Of a stretch of DNA of 64,000 bases, positions 1,212 to 4,003 are shown one piece after another. The stretch lies in the sequence record NC_054911.1. The stretch is one strand, 5' to 3'. Within the stretch, counting starts at the first letter, position 1; each line of letters begins with the position of its first letter. The translations under genes were made by a program, and so were the position numbers. This DNA comes from Escherichia phage ECO4. The notes beneath the pieces were generated by a model. The model saw only the letters and a list, made by a program, of their open reading frames with translations, ran no database searches and had not been told where the DNA came from.

Positions 1212-2054
1212 TTAATCAACTGCTATTGGATGAATAGCATTAAACTTATGAAATGCTTCTGATTTTTCTTTACGCGAAACACACATGCGAAGAACCTTTA
1301 ATGGTTCATCTTCTTCACCCAACGATTTTCGTTTTTCAATATTAGAAGTTTTCCAACGAGCTTGCTCTGGAAACTCTCTATTGATTTGCTCAAGCGCTCT
1401 ATTATGTTTAGAATTACTACGAATTGAACTGCACCCGCCAGGAGCTTGTGCTTTTCCGGATACAACCAGATATTTGAACAAGGCCAAATGTGGATAACCT
1501 TGATTAATTAAATTGAGAAATGCATACATATCTTCGCATAAATCAATTTTTCCATACCCAATTTGTTCTGTCGTAAGTTTTCCGAGGTCATACCATGTAT
1601 TCGTGAATCCATATGAATTTTCACGATAATTACCCCAAGATGAAGTAATTTTAAAAATAGGTAGACGAGCATGGCCATGATAATACCCACAATCCATGGC
1701 ATCCTCAACATATTGAATCAATTCATAGAACTGTTCACGAGTTAATTGATTGACTTTATCTACGCAGCGTCGATCATCTCTTTTTCGCATTGAACTCATA
1801 CGAATAGTAGTATCATCGTCAATCATCCAGATTCGTTGACCTGCATACATATCAGTAATTGCTTTACGAGTACCGGCAATTCCGTTTACATCATCAGGAA
1901 TAGTTATAATTTTAGCTTTAGACCCATAGGCATCATAATAAGCTTTTTCTTCATGTTCACGCACTACAATATGGGGTTCATAATCAGTCGGAAACATATC
2001 AAGGGCAGAAACTGCCCCGACACGCTGATAACTTGGAATTACGAATTGAATCAT
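1212..2054 (-). CDS. putative GT-A fold glycosyltransferase at the beta-gt locus (possible HMC-DNA beta-alpha-glucosyltransferase)
   Basis: ORF between uvsX and gene 42; DXD-like motif RIWMIDDDTTI; does not match recalled T4 beta-gt; ATG at 2054 overlaps gene 42 stop (ATGA); track start 2060 is a GTG artefact. Confidence 0.6.
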   Translation of the reverse strand: MIQFVIPSYQRVGAVSALDMFPTDYEPHIVVREHEEKAYYDAYGSKAKIITIPDDVNGIAGTRKAITDMYAGQRIWMIDDDTTIRMSSMRKRDDRRCVDKVNQLTREQFYELIQYVEDAMDCGYYHGHARLPIFKITSSWGNYRENSYGFTNTWYDLGKLTTEQIGYGKIDLCEDMYAFLNLINQGYPHLALFKYLVVSGKAQAPGGCSSIRSNSKHNRALEQINREFPEQARWKTSNIEKRKSLGEEDEPLKVLRMCVSRKEKSEAFHKFNAIHPIAVD

Positions 2055-2791
2055 TTCCACTCACCTTTATAGTCTTTTTTCACAATATGAGTTTCGCCAG
2101 TATTCCACCAATGATCAACCAAGTAAAAATGACGAGAATATACATGAAGACTTCCAACATTCCATATAATAGAACCTGCTTTATACTGACGAGTTGAATC
2201 GCCTGCATTCAAATCAGATACTAATTTATCTAATACGTATTTTTGCCATGCATAATCATTACGGAATCCGAAGACCACGTCATTTGAGCGCATGCTTACT
2301 ACTGCATTGACTTTCTTATCACGAATCAGGTACTGTACTGTATTAGTACACATGAAATCTGACATACCATCTTTATTGTAGTCAAATTGCATAGATGGAC
2401 GAGTATAAATCATGATACCACGTCGAGAATCAGGATTTTGACCAAGTTCAGCTAAACACATATCATACTGAGCATAGTTATCTTCTGACCAGATAGCCCA
2501 ACCATAATTCGAGTTAATTTCACCTTTAGAAGATGCTACTTGTTGCCAAATCTTCGGTGTTTCACCTGGAATATCTTTAACAAACAAGCTTTTAGATTTA
2601 TACCATTCAAGTTCACGCTGAATGTATTCATCATTAAGAGCGCCAAAAATAAACGGTTCATCTGCTACAAATGATGCGCCAATAATTTCAATAGTTTTAA
2701 CACCAGTTTTATCAACTACGAAATCTTTTTCTTTTAATGCAAGCCCCAAATGAAGACGGATTTCTTCAACTGTCATAGAGTCACTAATCAT
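2051..2791 (-). CDS. 42: dCMP hydroxymethylase
   Basis: 246 aa, MISDSMTVEEIRLHLGLALKEKDF..., matches recalled T4 gp42. Confidence 0.95.
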   Translation of the reverse strand: MISDSMTVEEIRLHLGLALKEKDFVVDKTGVKTIEIIGASFVADEPFIFGALNDEYIQRELEWYKSKSLFVKDIPGETPKIWQQVASSKGEINSNYGWAIWSEDNYAQYDMCLAELGQNPDSRRGIMIYTRPSMQFDYNKDGMSDFMCTNTVQYLIRDKKVNAVVSMRSNDVVFGFRNDYAWQKYVLDKLVSDLNAGDSTRQYKAGSIIWNVGSLHVYSRHFYLVDHWWNTGETHIVKKDYKGEWK

Positions 2792-2944
2792 TTAAACCTC
2801 AATTGATACATTCATATTTAACTTGTAACAGTAATAAACTCCAACCTAAAATAATAGTTGGAATCATAAGAGGAACCGTTACACTATAGTATATACTTAT
2901 TATAATCATCAAGATTAAAAGCAATGCTGCTATAATTTTGCTTT

Positions 2945-3196
2945 TCATTCCTTCTCTCTGATGATAATTACCTGATTTGGCTGCGCAGACTTTTTAGTTT
3001 CACCAGCAATTGACCAAATAAATGTAATAAACCAACCAATAATTGACCAGTTAAACAGTAAAGATGTGAAAAAGATTCCTACTGTCGATTTTGACCCACG
3101 CATCAAGGCGATAAACCATGGAAGCATGTATATAATAATAGCCAACACGCCTGAAACTAAAACCATAAAAATTGAACCTGCTACTAAAGTTTCCAT
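2945..3196 (-). CDS. imm: Imm superinfection immunity membrane protein
   Basis: 83 aa, two hydrophobic helices, position after gene 43 and before 42, RBS GAGGAAA. Confidence 0.85.
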   Translation of the reverse strand: METLVAGSIFMVLVSGVLAIIIYMLPWFIALMRGSKSTVGIFFTSLLFNWSIIGWFITFIWSIAGETKKSAQPNQVIIIREKE

Positions 3197-3203
3197 GTTT
3201 TCC

Positions 3204-3584
3204 TCACTTAGTCAAATTTTTTACACATGAATTATAAGAATTCACTACATACTCCATCGGAGCATTTTTACCAGTACGCCATTGGTAATTATTAGCCCAA
3301 TTTGCCCAAAGCATGGCGCAGTAGTTTTCAATTTTTTCTTCGCGTGTAATTACATCTGAATTACGATATGCTTGAGCAGATTCATCTGGACGAATAGCTT
3401 CGTCAAAATTCGCCTGCATTTGTTCTACTGTTTGCTTTGGAGCTTCTTTATAACACTTGATATTAGGATTATAAAATTTGCTTGAACAGTTTACAATTTT
3501 TCCTGCATCAGACTGATTTACTACCGGTCCTTGAGCTACACAACCAGTAAGACCTAATGCAATAACCAAAATAGCGATTTTCAT
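3204..3584 (-). CDS. predicted lipoprotein
   Basis: N-terminal signal peptide MKIAILVIALGLTGC with lipobox LTGC; RBS GAGGAAA. Confidence 0.6.
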   Translation of the reverse strand: MKIAILVIALGLTGCVAQGPVVNQSDAGKIVNCSSKFYNPNIKCYKEAPKQTVEQMQANFDEAIRPDESAQAYRNSDVITREEKIENYCAMLWANWANNYQWRTGKNAPMEYVVNSYNSCVKNLTK

Positions 3585-3594
3585 AATAATTTCC

Positions 3595-3831
3595 TCAAAT
3601 GCAAGTAGTAATTACTCCAGTAGTGCTTATGCAGGTATTACCCATTTGCACACCTAAAGATCCATTTGTATTCACATGAAGATTATCGTCAATTTTAACT
3701 GATATTTTACCATTAGTGTGAATAACGGTGCTAGATTCAATCACAGGTTGAGTATCATTTTCAACACTAACAAATGGAACTGCTGCTAATGCAACTAAAC
3801 AAACTGCTAAGCATCCCATAACAATTTTCAT
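3595..3831 (-). CDS. small exported protein with signal peptide
   Basis: MKIVMGCLAVCLVALAAVPFVSV signal-like N-terminus; ATG at 3831 with GGAG 7 nt upstream; track start 3843 is TTG artefact; directly downstream of early promoter. Confidence 0.5.
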   Translation of the reverse strand: MKIVMGCLAVCLVALAAVPFVSVENDTQPVIESSTVIHTNGKISVKIDDNLHVNTNGSLGVQMGNTCISTTGVITTCI

Positions 3832-3868
3832 TTCATTCTCCAAATCCGTATCAGTAGTTGATAGTTGT

Positions 3869-3898
3869 ATAGTACCATAGAAGAACAGGGATGTAAAC
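3869..3898 (-). promoter_or_regulatory. early (sigma70) promoter, GTTTAC-18nt-TACTAT
   Basis: Minus-strand GTTTAC (3898-3893) and TACTAT (3874-3869), A-rich upstream element. Confidence 0.7.
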
Positions 3899-3980
3899 AG
3901 TTTTGTGAAAAAATTTTTAGGGAATCCAAAGGGTCCAGAATCATCTCTTTTTCATAAGTATAGATTTATATTACTTGTAT

Positions 3981-4003
3981 GAAAAAGGGACCCGGAGGTC
4001 CCT
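3981..4003 (-). terminator. intrinsic terminator after gene 43
   Basis: Hairpin AGGGACC-UCCG-GGUCCCU followed by U-run on minus strand. Confidence 0.6.

What the first reader, a model, noticed from the sequence alone, without database searches (positions are those of the whole stretch)
3204..3831. Lipoprotein and small exported protein downstream of gene 43, next to imm
Between gene 43 and imm there are two secretory-type ORFs: a 78-aa protein with a signal peptide behind its own early promoter, and a 126-aa predicted lipoprotein (LTGC lipobox). Envelope-targeted early proteins adjacent to the superinfection-immunity gene are candidates for additional superinfection exclusion or receptor masking.
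Basis: inference. Interest (0 to 1): 0.4.

Follow-up and report, generated by a model that had tools for sequence, protein, structure and literature searches.

The report
T-even imm.1 lipoprotein plus variable small ORF
The two ORFs are real early genes of a T4-like phage: one is the already catalogued but uncharacterised imm.1, a predicted outer-membrane lipoprotein that sits next to the superinfection-immunity gene in every T4-like lineage examined, and the other is a strain-variable small exported or membrane protein in an insertion hot spot that T4 itself leaves empty.

Summary
On the minus strand, after the gene 43 terminator and an early-type promoter, lie a 78-aa ORF (3831-3595) and a 126-aa ORF (3584-3204), followed by imm.

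The 126-aa ORF is the ortholog of T4 imm.1 (Pfam DUF5481, 233 bits). It is an annotated gene of unknown function. In T4 it is early-expressed and detected as protein, and it is non-essential in two genome-wide screens. Its lipobox (LTGC, Cys15, no Asp at +2) passes a PROSITE-style rule and is conserved in distant homologs. The Cys pattern suggests periplasmic disulfides.

New here: an Imm.1-type lipoprotein ORF lies directly beside imm in 26 of 26 T4-like loci, in at least eight lineages, either upstream or downstream. It is rare next to non-T4-like imm homologs. This supports a functional link to Imm. Receptor masking is unlikely, because T2, T4 and T6 carry 96-97% identical Imm.1.

The 78-aa ORF (phrog_4189) is a real gene (dN/dS about 0.3), but it is cargo in a three-state slot: this ORF, an unrelated T2-type ORF, or empty as in T4 and T6. 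It has a 21-residue hydrophobic N-terminus and no lipobox.

No fold or sequence relative of known function was found. Function remains inferred. Interest is modest.

The parts
3986..4003 (-). Intrinsic-terminator-like hairpin after gene 43 (AGGGACCTCCGGGTCCCT + TTTTT)
   Evidence: The equivalent site is annotated as a terminator in T4 M37159 and in phage DalCa.
3869..3897 (-). Early-type sigma-70 promoter-like site (G)TTTACA-17 nt-TACTAT with an upstream TG and an A/T-rich upstream stretch. It serves the orf78-imm.1-imm-orf49 gene string.
   Evidence: Nearly identical in T4. T4 imm.1 is classed as early RNA and early protein (PMC9697503 supplement). The scan alone is not statistically significant.
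3595..3831 (-). orf78 (phrog_4189). A 78-aa small envelope protein: K2, a 21-residue uncharged hydrophobic N-terminus (signal anchor, or signal peptide with a candidate ALA|A site after residue 16), then a ~55-residue Thr/Asn/Val-rich, strand-predicted C-terminal part with Cys67 and Cys77. SD GGAG at 3841-3838.
   Evidence: Absent from T4 and T6 through a start-codon-to-start-codon 247-bp indel.
3204..3584 (-). imm.1 ortholog (DUF5481/PF17578, phrog_1754). A 126-aa predicted lipoprotein precursor. The mature protein starts at Cys15 and has four further Cys residues (33, 44, 89, 120).
   Evidence: (E=4.7e-70).
3540..3584 (-). Signal peptide plus lipobox of Imm.1 (MKIAILVIALG-LTG-C15; +2 residue Val, so no Asp inner-membrane retention signal)
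   Evidence: The lipobox is conserved in T4 (LAGC), Mosigvirus (LTGC) and P0005 (LVGC). In P0004 it is replaced by a plain AHA|S signal peptide.
2945..3196 (-). imm, the superinfection immunity inner-membrane protein (83 aa). Its start lies 8 nt after the imm.1 stop.
   Evidence: (PF14373, E=7.7e-16). 100% identical to T2 and T6 Imm.
2799..2948 (-). orf49 (called 42.1 in RB51). A 49-aa very hydrophobic peptide whose start overlaps the imm stop (ATGA). It is the third conserved member of the envelope gene string.
   Evidence: (phrog_3610). Present but unannotated in T4 RefSeq.

Best explanation
Shown:
- The region is the promoter-proximal part of an early operon of a Tequatrovirus (T2/T4/T6-like). 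All four of its small products are envelope proteins: orf78, Imm.1, Imm and orf49.
- The 126-aa ORF is the ortholog of T4 imm.1.

Inferred from sequence, for Imm.1:
- It is made as a lipoprotein precursor, lipidated on Cys15, and sorted by Lol to the inner leaflet of the outer membrane, because there is no Asp at +2.
- It exposes to the periplasm a short conserved N-terminal motif (VVNxSDxGK ... YNPN) and a helical C-terminal domain. The domain appears to be held by one conserved disulfide (C89-C120), plus a lineage-specific one (C33-C44).

Inferred from conserved gene neighbourhood:
- Imm.1 works with Imm as the outer-membrane or periplasm-side accessory of the T-even block to DNA entry by superinfecting phage.
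- Most plausibly it binds a component of the incoming tail tip or its delivery channel, or positions or stabilises Imm, in the way the small helical disulfide-bonded periplasmic protein Spackle binds gp5 lysozyme.
- It is not a receptor mask.

orf78:
- It is a separate, strain-variable cargo gene inserted between the operon's SD and imm.1.
- It encodes a small bitopic or exported beta-rich protein. Its role may be another envelope or exclusion function, but its position does not establish that.
For: Identity:
- Pfam DUF5481 at 233 bits against a cut-off of 27.
- 97% identical to T4 Imm.1 at the same position between gene 43 and imm.

Real, expressed gene:
- dN/dS 0.09-0.16.
- T4 Imm.1 is classed as early RNA and early protein (PMC9697503 supplement).

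Lipoprotein:
- The lipobox rule is passed by all Tequatrovirus, Mosigvirus and P0005 homologs, and by the imm-adjacent ORFs of S16, Nispero, PS2, SP18 and IME08. None has Asp at +2.
- One variant (P0004) has swapped the lipobox for a plain AHA|S signal peptide, so periplasmic export is the constant feature.

Oxidising compartment:
- C89 and C120 are invariant.
- C33 and C44 are either both present or both absent.

Link to imm:
- imm.1 is directly upstream of imm in T4 (43|imm.1|imm), in Mosigvirus at a different genome location (dmd|imm.1|imm|sp), and in two metagenomic lineages.
- A lipoprotein of the same architecture is upstream of imm in Gelderlandvirus, Jiaodavirus and Muldoonvirus, and downstream in Gaprivervirus and Dhakavirus.
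- 26 of 26 T4-like imm loci from IMG/VR have it adjacent, against about 3 of 54 non-T4-like imm loci.
- Only one lipobox ORF exists in the 64-kb window.
- Remote homology is bridged by P0005: mature region against Nispero z=4.95, SP18 z=3.7, IME08 z=3.0.

Against receptor masking: Imm.1 is 96-97% identical in T2, T4 and T6.

orf78 as cargo:
- It is missing from T4 and T6 through an indel that runs from start codon to start codon, within a shared ATGAAAAT.
- It is replaced by an unrelated ORF (phrog_18567) in T2-type phages.
- It occurs in 324 records against about 500 for Tequatrovirus imm.1.
- dS is 0.30-0.43, against 0.08-0.15 in imm.1.
Against: - No functional data tie Imm.1 to exclusion.
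- Imm alone expressed from a plasmid excludes T4 and binds the tape-measure protein directly (bioRxiv 10.64898/2026.03.06.709160).
- T4 imm.1 shows no fitness effect in CRISPRi-ART ('Not Fit') and is non-essential in HIDEN-SEQ (31 of 31 TA sites hit). Neither assay measures exclusion.
- Lipidation and outer-membrane sorting rest on pattern rules only. The same rule also flags Mosigvirus Spackle, which is described as a soluble periplasmic protein.
- Cys15 is at the lower limit of the rule.
- The AlphaFold model is mediocre (pLDDT 62.8, with the N-terminal 50 residues below 50). It has no structural neighbour of known function.
- Homology between DUF5481 and the lipoproteins of the other genera is not significant by profile comparison once the signal peptide is removed (P about 0.07).
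- One DUF5481 lineage lacks the lipid anchor (P0004).
Confidence: 0.5

Rival explanations
1. Receptor masking or adsorption block. Imm.1 (or orf78) would be an outer-membrane lipoprotein that binds and inactivates the phage's own receptor, as T5 Llp does with FhuA or Cor does in phi80/N15.
For: Imm.1 is a predicted Lol-sorted outer-membrane lipoprotein, made early, and small with disulfides. That is the same general make-up as Llp. orf78 is strain-variable, as a receptor-specific factor might be.
Against: Imm.1 is 96-97% identical in T2, T4 and T6 and above 95% in about 500 Tequatroviruses. By established knowledge these phages use different receptors (FadL/OmpF, OmpC/LPS, Tsx). There was no Foldseek hit in the PDB or among viral predicted structures outside its own family. 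The gene is linked to imm and the DNA polymerase gene, not to the adhesin genes. The window's orf78 has no lipobox and is predicted to stay at the inner membrane or in the periplasm.
Confidence: 0.06
2. Envelope proteins with a role other than blocking DNA entry. Candidates are resistance to lysis from without, tuning of the lysis-inhibition signal in the periplasm, protection of the infected envelope, or countering an envelope-associated host defence. On this reading, co-location with imm only reflects a common early 'envelope' operon.
For: All four products of the gene string are envelope proteins. imm and sp mutants also affect lysis inhibition (review PMC6832632). In Mosigvirus the string continues into sp. 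Imm works without Imm.1 on a plasmid. There is no fitness phenotype under laboratory conditions.
Against: Adjacency to imm specifically is kept through relocation and inversion of gene order in at least eight lineages. That is more than expected for mere co-expression. Nothing positive points to any one of these alternative roles.
Confidence: 0.3
3. One reading: both ORFs together form an additional, previously unrecognised superinfection-exclusion device next to imm.
For: Both are early and envelope-targeted, and both lie in the imm operon. orf78 has two divergent allele groups and is patchily distributed. Such a pattern is seen in genes involved in phage-phage competition.
Against: orf78 and imm.1 do not travel together. 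imm.1 is present in all T4-like lineages, whereas orf78 is found only in about two thirds of Tequatroviruses. Its slot is empty in T4 and T6 or holds an unrelated cytoplasmic-looking ORF in T2. The model is poor (pLDDT 52.7) and there are no relatives of known function.
Confidence: 0.12
4. One or both ORFs are not real genes, i.e. chance ORFs in an intergenic leader.
For: The ORFs are small and A/T-rich. orf78 is absent from the reference phage T4.
Against: dN/dS is well below 1 for both. Reading frames are intact in hundreds of genomes. SD sequences are well spaced. There are Pfam and PHROG families. T4 Imm.1 is detected as a protein.
Confidence: 0.02

Closest known systems
Bacteriophage T4 Imm.1 (gene imm.1, ORF 42.2; UniProt P18057; Pfam DUF5481/PF17578; phrog_1754)
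   Same: It is the same gene. It is 97% identical, sits at the same position between gene 43 and imm, and has the same promoter/SD context, lipobox and cysteines.
   Different: The window phage has LTGC where T4 has LAGC, one extra C-terminal residue, and the 78-aa ORF inserted in front. In T4 the gene is annotated only as a 'predicted membrane protein' of unknown function. RefSeq mislabels it 'iduronate sulfatase'.
T4 Spackle (Sp), a periplasmic inhibitor of the gp5 tail lysozyme
   Same: Sp is an early, exported, small, helical, disulfide-bonded periplasmic protein of the T-even exclusion repertoire (PMC7677548). In Mosigvirus sp lies immediately after imm.1-imm. It is the best analogy for how Imm.1 might work.
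   Different: There is no detectable sequence or fold similarity: no Foldseek PDB match at E<5. Imm.1 is predicted to be lipid-anchored, and its target is unknown.
T5 Llp and Cor-type outer-membrane lipoproteins (receptor-blocking superinfection exclusion)
   Same: These are phage-encoded, early, small lipoproteins predicted or shown to act from the periplasmic face of the outer membrane.
   Different: There is no similarity in sequence or predicted fold. Imm.1 is not linked to the receptor-binding-protein gene. It does not vary with receptor specificity across T2, T4 and T6.
imm-adjacent lipoproteins of other T4-like genera (S16 gp27, Nispero gp23, PS2 gp047, SP18gp045, IME08 orf44)
   Same: All have a lipobox without Asp at +2, are 146-167 aa long, carry a Cys pair in the C-terminal third, and are directly adjacent to imm. 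A post-lipobox motif ([VI]-[VP]-x-[SAN]-[SDE]-[VI]-G-[KQ]) is shared with DUF5481 members. P0005 gives z=3.0-4.95 against three of them.
   Different: They are not recognised by Pfam DUF5481. The profile comparison of the mature parts is not significant. They are longer, with an extra charged helical segment, and lie downstream of imm in two genera.
phrog_4189 / 'hypothetical protein' of about 320 Tequatrovirus genomes (orf78)
   Same: The window ORF is a 100% identical member (E=4.8e-30).
   Different: Some alleles carry 7-residue duplications in the hydrophobic segment. One of these (P0018) creates an LAAC lipobox and is labelled 'Lipoprotein' by UniRef. The window allele has no lipobox.

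Membership tests
T4 Imm.1 / Pfam DUF5481 (PF17578) | Match to the family HMM above the gathering score | tested here: met
   233 bits against a cut-off of 27, E=4.7e-70, covering profile positions 1-103 of 103. phrog_1754 E=1.2e-42.
T4 Imm.1 / Pfam DUF5481 (PF17578) | Position directly upstream of imm, same strand, in a T-even phage | tested here: met
   The imm.1 stop is at 3204 and the imm start at 3196. The arrangement is the same in T4, T2, T6, Mosigvirus, L007 and L008.
T4 Imm.1 / Pfam DUF5481 (PF17578) | Conserved residues of the family (YNPN, YR-SD, C89, C120) | tested here: met
   Invariant columns Y38 N39 P40 K43 Y45 Y73 R74 S76 C89 C120 in an alignment reaching down to 34% identity.
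Bacterial-type lipoproteins (lipobox, PROSITE PS51257-style rule) | Basic residue in the first 7 positions, uncharged h-region, [LVI][ASTVI][GAS]C with Cys at positions 15-35 | tested here: met
   Imm.1 has K2, ILVIAL, GL-T-G-C15 (rule written from memory). The Pfam LPAM_1 match is only weak (E=0.42). orf78 of the window does not meet the rule: Cys7 and Cys11 are too early and Val is at -1.
Bacterial-type lipoproteins (lipobox, PROSITE PS51257-style rule) | Actual Lgt/LspA processing and acylation; localisation by the +2 rule | not testable with these tools
   Only inference is possible. The +2 residue is Val, Ala, Gly, Ser or Gln in all homologs and never Asp. LipoP and SignalP are unavailable. 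The same pattern rule also flags Mosigvirus Sp, so it can over-call.
Receptor-blocking phage lipoproteins (T5 Llp, Cor) | Sequence or fold similarity to Llp or Cor | tested here: not met
   No Pfam or NCBIfam hit. No PDB sequence hit. No Foldseek PDB hit with E<5. The model has only moderate confidence.
Receptor-blocking phage lipoproteins (T5 Llp, Cor) | Specificity that tracks the phage's receptor, and genetic linkage to the receptor-binding protein gene | tested here: not met
   96-97% identity between T2, T4, T6 and the window phage. The gene lies between the DNA polymerase gene and imm.
Receptor-blocking phage lipoproteins (T5 Llp, Cor) | Exclusion or adsorption-block phenotype | not testable with these tools
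   This needs plasmid expression and EOP or adsorption assays.
Spackle-like periplasmic inhibitors of virion components | Homology to Sp | tested here: not met
   No Foldseek or HMM match to Sp structures in the PDB.
Spackle-like periplasmic inhibitors of virion components | Early, exported, small helical disulfide-bonded protein | tested here: inconclusive
   Early RNA and protein in T4. Export signal present. Helices 53-125 have pLDDT 70-89. A conserved Cys pair is present. The disulfide and any binding partner were not shown.
Sec signal peptide proteins (for orf78) | n-region, h-region and a c-region with small residues at -3 and -1 | tested here: inconclusive
   K2 and a hydrophobic run are present, with candidate sites LVA|L, ALA|A and LAA|V at residues 14-17. 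However, the hydrophobic stretch is 21 residues long, tolerates 7-residue duplications, and is followed by acidic END. This fits an uncleaved signal anchor equally well. No dedicated predictor was available.
phrog_4189 (for orf78) | Match to the family profile | tested here: met
   E=4.8e-30 over the whole profile. 324 phage records by tblastn.

The most novel reading that the evidence does not exclude
Imm.1-type lipoprotein, Imm and the 42.1-like two-helix peptide form a conserved, envelope-spanning three-part exclusion module of all T4-like phages. Imm.1 would be the so far missing outer-membrane or periplasmic component. It might capture or misdirect the incoming tail-tip/tape-measure complex, or tether Imm at injection sites. 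Its fast divergence between genera (about 32% identity between T4 and RB69 types, against about 65% for Imm) would set which phages exclude which. orf78 would be an add-on specificity factor in some strains.
Probability: 0.22. Interest if true: 0.6.

Novelty: already known. Interest (0 to 1): 0.3.

Why it matters
T4 superinfection exclusion is a textbook phenomenon whose mechanism is only now being solved: Sp-gp5 in 2020 and Imm-tape measure in a 2026 preprint. Imm.1 has sat next to imm since the locus was sequenced and is still listed as 'unknown'.

The comparative result here gives a concrete, cheap hypothesis to test with existing T4 genetics: a lipoprotein of this type is the invariant neighbour of imm across T4-like genera, even when the pair moves or flips. 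The result also argues against the receptor-masking idea.

If the link is real, the exclusion system would have a component in each envelope layer. That could help explain cross-exclusion patterns between T-even genera. If the link is not real, these remain two more small envelope ORFs of unknown role, and the finding is ordinary.

Tried and rejected
- **Literature.** Full-text searches for 'imm.1' mostly returned journal-abbreviation noise. 'DUF5481' returned nothing. The original Lu and Henning papers (PMC250924, PMC237878) are not held. No paper was found that characterises Imm.1 or describes it as a lipoprotein partner of Imm.
- **Sequence reach.** The word-indexed search found only 3 clusters. 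The exhaustive HMMER scan of 1.84 billion representatives found only 5 true relatives. The family is tiny, so no deep alignment was possible.
- **Structure.** The AF2 model of Imm.1 has pLDDT 62.8 and that of orf78 has 52.7. Foldseek against the PDB gave nothing below E=5. BFVD returned only the protein's own family, plus an insignificant 'Lipoprotein [Citrobacter phage CF1]' at E=0.24. PDB sequence and profile searches gave only noise. That includes an E=3.1 match of orf78 to a baseplate spike protein, which I do not regard as meaningful. NCBIfam gave nothing.
- **Remote homology to imm-adjacent lipoproteins of other genera.** The full-length hhalign probability of 95.8% covers only the signal peptide and the first about 25 mature residues. 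With signal peptides removed it is not significant. Only the pairwise shuffle test with P0005 as a bridge gave support. I therefore call them positional analogs and probable remote homologs, not proven family members.
- **The search for related loci.** I replaced it with an Imm-based scan.
- **Paralogs.** None of orf78, imm.1, imm or orf49 has a paralog in the window.
- **orf78 as a lipoprotein.** Rejected for the window allele. The UniRef 'Lipoprotein' label belongs to a duplication allele (P0018).
- **Count of T4-type empty junctions.** The figure of 234 records is not reliable, because split matches may be joined. I use the difference between instead.
Full report
**1. What is there**

The window is from a Tequatrovirus (T2/T4/T6-like phage). 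The 1.4-kb stretch around the finding is 98-99% identical to hundreds of such genomes. On the minus strand the order is as follows:

| Feature | Coordinates |
|---|---|
| Gene 43 (DNA polymerase) | 6712-4016 |
| Terminator-like hairpin | 4003-3986 |
| Early-type promoter-like site, TTTACA-17-TACTAT with TG | 3897-3869 |
| SD GGAG | 3841-3838 |
| 78-aa ORF | 3831-3595 |
| SD GAGGA, overlapping the 78-aa ORF's stop | 3596-3592 |
| 126-aa ORF | 3584-3204 |
| imm | 3196-2945 |
| 49-aa hydrophobic ORF, overlapping the imm stop | 2948-2799 |
| Gene 42 | 2791-2051 |

**2. The 126-aa ORF is T4 imm.1**

- It matches Pfam DUF5481 at 233 bits (cut-off 27) and phrog_1754.
- It aligns base for base with T4 imm.1 between imm and gene 43.
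[quoted passage not shown] The RefSeq label 'iduronate sulfatase' is spurious.
- In T4 it is classed as early at both RNA and protein level (PMC9697503 supplement).
- It scores 'Not Fit' in CRISPRi-ART (PMC11879866 supplement) and non-essential in HIDEN-SEQ, with 31 of 31 TA sites hit (bioRxiv 10.1101/2025.11.20.689424 supplement).
- I found no paper that assigns it a function.

**3. Export signal and compartment of Imm.1**

- The N-terminus MKIAILVIALG-LTG-C15 passes a PROSITE PS51257-style rule (the rule was written from memory). It is the only ORF in 64 kb to pass a stringent lipobox filter.
- The lipobox is kept in T4 (LAGC), in the 32%-identical Mosigvirus homolog (LTGC) and in a 41%-identical metagenomic homolog (LVGC).
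- One 44%-identical variant (P0004) has Phe in place of the Cys, followed by AHA|S, which is an ordinary signal peptide. Export to the periplasm is therefore the constant feature, and lipid anchoring is the usual but not universal form.
- No homolog has Asp at +2. By the E. coli +2 rule (established knowledge) this predicts Lol sorting to the outer membrane.
- C89 and C120 are invariant. C33 and C44 are present together or absent together. This is the pattern expected for two disulfides in an oxidising compartment.
- AlphaFold2 on the shallow alignment gives a mediocre model (pLDDT 62.8). The N-terminal 50 residues are unstructured, and a helical C-terminal half (residues 53-125) has pLDDT 70-89.
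- The model has no neighbour of known function in the PDB or BFVD. PDB sequence searches also find nothing.
- The family is tiny, with five true relatives among 1.84 billion cluster representatives.

**4. The conserved neighbourhood (the main new result)**

imm.1 lies directly upstream of imm in several settings:

- In T4, T2 and T6.
- In Mosigvirus, where the pair sits elsewhere in the genome: dmd | imm.1 | imm | sp.
- In two divergent metagenomic lineages.

In five further genera that lack a recognisable DUF5481 protein, the ORF next to imm is again a lipoprotein:

- It is upstream in Gelderlandvirus S16, Jiaodavirus Nispero and Muldoonvirus PS2.
- It is downstream, behind the small hydrophobic ORF, in Gaprivervirus SP18 and Dhakavirus IME08.
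- All five pass the lipobox rule, lack Asp at +2 and carry a Cys pair in the C-terminal third.

I then fetched 80 imm loci from IMG/VR and scanned them with the lipobox rule:

- All 26 T4-like loci have such an ORF 8-62 nt upstream or 46-184 nt downstream of imm on the same strand.
- Only about 3 of the 54 loci with more distant, non-T4-like Imm_superinfect homologs do.

Whether these lipoproteins are homologous to DUF5481 is only partly shown:

- Full-length hhalign gives 95.8%, but only over the signal peptide and the first about 25 mature residues.
- Mature parts alone are not significant (P about 0.07).
- The bona fide DUF5481 member P0005 is significantly similar, in its mature part, to the Jiaodavirus, Gaprivervirus and Dhakavirus proteins (z=4.95, 3.7 and 3.0 against shuffles).

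I treat them as positional analogs and probable remote homologs. Either way, the adjacency has survived relocation and a change of gene order. That is good evidence for a functional link to Imm.

**5. What Imm.1 probably does**

This part is inference.

- Imm is an inner-membrane protein that binds the tape-measure protein gp29 and blocks formation of the DNA conduit. It works alone from a plasmid (bioRxiv 10.64898/2026.03.06.709160).
- Sp is a small helical, disulfide-bonded periplasmic protein that inhibits the gp5 lysozyme (PMC7677548).
- An early, outer-membrane-anchored, periplasm-facing helical protein encoded next to imm is most simply read as a third, accessory envelope component of the same defence against secondary infection.
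Imm.1 is 96-97% identical in T2, T4, T6 and the window phage and above 95% in about 500 genomes. By established knowledge these phages use different receptors.
- Between genera Imm.1 diverges far more than Imm does (about 32% against about 65% identity between T4 and Mosigvirus types). Sp behaves similarly. This would fit a target on the incoming virion that differs between genera.
- Other envelope roles cannot be excluded, such as lysis-inhibition signalling or resistance to lysis from without.

**6. The 78-aa ORF**

It is a real gene:

- dN/dS is 0.26-0.34.
- It belongs to phrog_4189 and occurs in 324 phage records.

It is not part of the conserved module:

- T4 and T6 lack it through a 247-bp indel. 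The ends of the indel fall in the ATGAAAAT shared by the two start codons, so in T4 the same promoter and SD drive imm.1 directly.
- T2-type phages carry an unrelated, non-hydrophobic 83-aa ORF (phrog_18567) in the same slot.
- Shigella phage CT01 has a scrambled version, with a duplicated promoter and imm.1 5' end around an orf78 fragment.
- Synonymous divergence is about three times that of the flanking imm.1 (dS 0.30-0.43 against 0.08-0.15), with two allele groups.

Its product looks like this:

- It has K2 followed by a 21-residue stretch without charged residues, then END.
- It has no lipobox. The UniRef 'Lipoprotein' label belongs to an allele (P0018) in which a 7-residue duplication creates LAAC.
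- Candidate signal-peptidase sites exist (ALA|A after residue 16). However, the length of the hydrophobic stretch and its tolerance of 7-residue duplications fit an uncleaved signal anchor equally well.
- The remaining about 55 residues are predicted as short strands, with low confidence (pLDDT 52.7).
- There is no relative of known function.

Because the slot is a cargo site, adjacency to imm says little about its role.

**7. Verdict**

Envelope targeting and, for the lipoprotein, a link to imm are supported. Receptor masking and the 'own promoter' are not.
- The lipoprotein is the known but uncharacterised gene imm.1. The small ORF is a known hypothetical protein of many Tequatroviruses.
- The added value is the comparative evidence that an Imm.1-type lipoprotein is the invariant partner of imm in T4-like phages, which gives a testable hypothesis.
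- Caveat: the lipoprotein call is pattern-based. The same rule also flags Mosigvirus Sp, which is described as soluble in the periplasm.

Noticed in passing
window 2799-2948 (-): A 49-aa very hydrophobic ORF whose ATG overlaps the imm stop (ATGA). It is identical in T4, where NC_000866 does not annotate it. It is conserved in divergent lineages (L007, L008, SP18 47 aa) with the motif MIPT...KYEC(I/F)N and dN/dS about 0.3. RB51 calls it 42.1 (phrog_3610). It appears to be a third conserved member of the imm module, except in Mosigvirus.
   Followed up: partly
window 3585-3841 (-) compared with L020 436-700 (T2) and L001 (T4): The slot between the early promoter/SD and the imm.1 start codon has three states in Tequatrovirus: orf78 (324 records), an unrelated 83-aa non-hydrophobic ORF phrog_18567 (T2, RB27, RB51, RB68 and others; 31 Tequatrovirus records; homologs lie elsewhere in Dhakavirus genomes), or empty (T4, T6). 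The boundaries are nearly exact at the start codons.
   Followed up: partly
L004 (Shigella phage CT01) 909-1746: A rearranged locus. The promoter leader and the first about 32 codons of imm.1 are duplicated and flank a fragment of orf78. This gives annotated chimeric ORFs of 101 and 179 aa, evidence of recombination between the similar 5' ends of the two genes.
   Followed up: no
L003 3737-4030 and L027/L028 (Mosigvirus sp): The signal peptide of Mosigvirus Spackle (MKKLSLAAILLAVSC...) also satisfies the lipobox pattern rule, although Sp is described in the literature as a soluble periplasmic protein after signal cleavage. Either the rule over-calls or the maturation of Sp deserves another look.
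   Followed up: no
L001 3637-4014 (T4 NC_000866 imm.1): RefSeq names T4 Imm.1 'iduronate sulfatase'. Many GenBank phage records call imm.1 homologs 'immunity protein', apparently by name transfer from imm. Neither label has a basis in the sequence.
   Followed up: yes
window 3828-3944 (-): A 38-aa ORF spans the promoter region upstream of orf78. Similar ORFs are annotated in T2 (35 aa), and some metagenomic gene calls fuse it to orf78 (P0009, P0011, P0015). It is probably an artefact of ORF calling across the promoter.
   Followed up: no
window 1212-2060 (-): The gene after gene 42 is of the beta-glucosyl-HMC-alpha-glucosyltransferase type found in T2, T6 and S16 (annotated as such in T2 and S16), not the T4 beta-glucosyltransferase. 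There is also no segA-like gene here. The window phage is therefore T2/T6-like in its DNA glucosylation genes.
   Followed up: no
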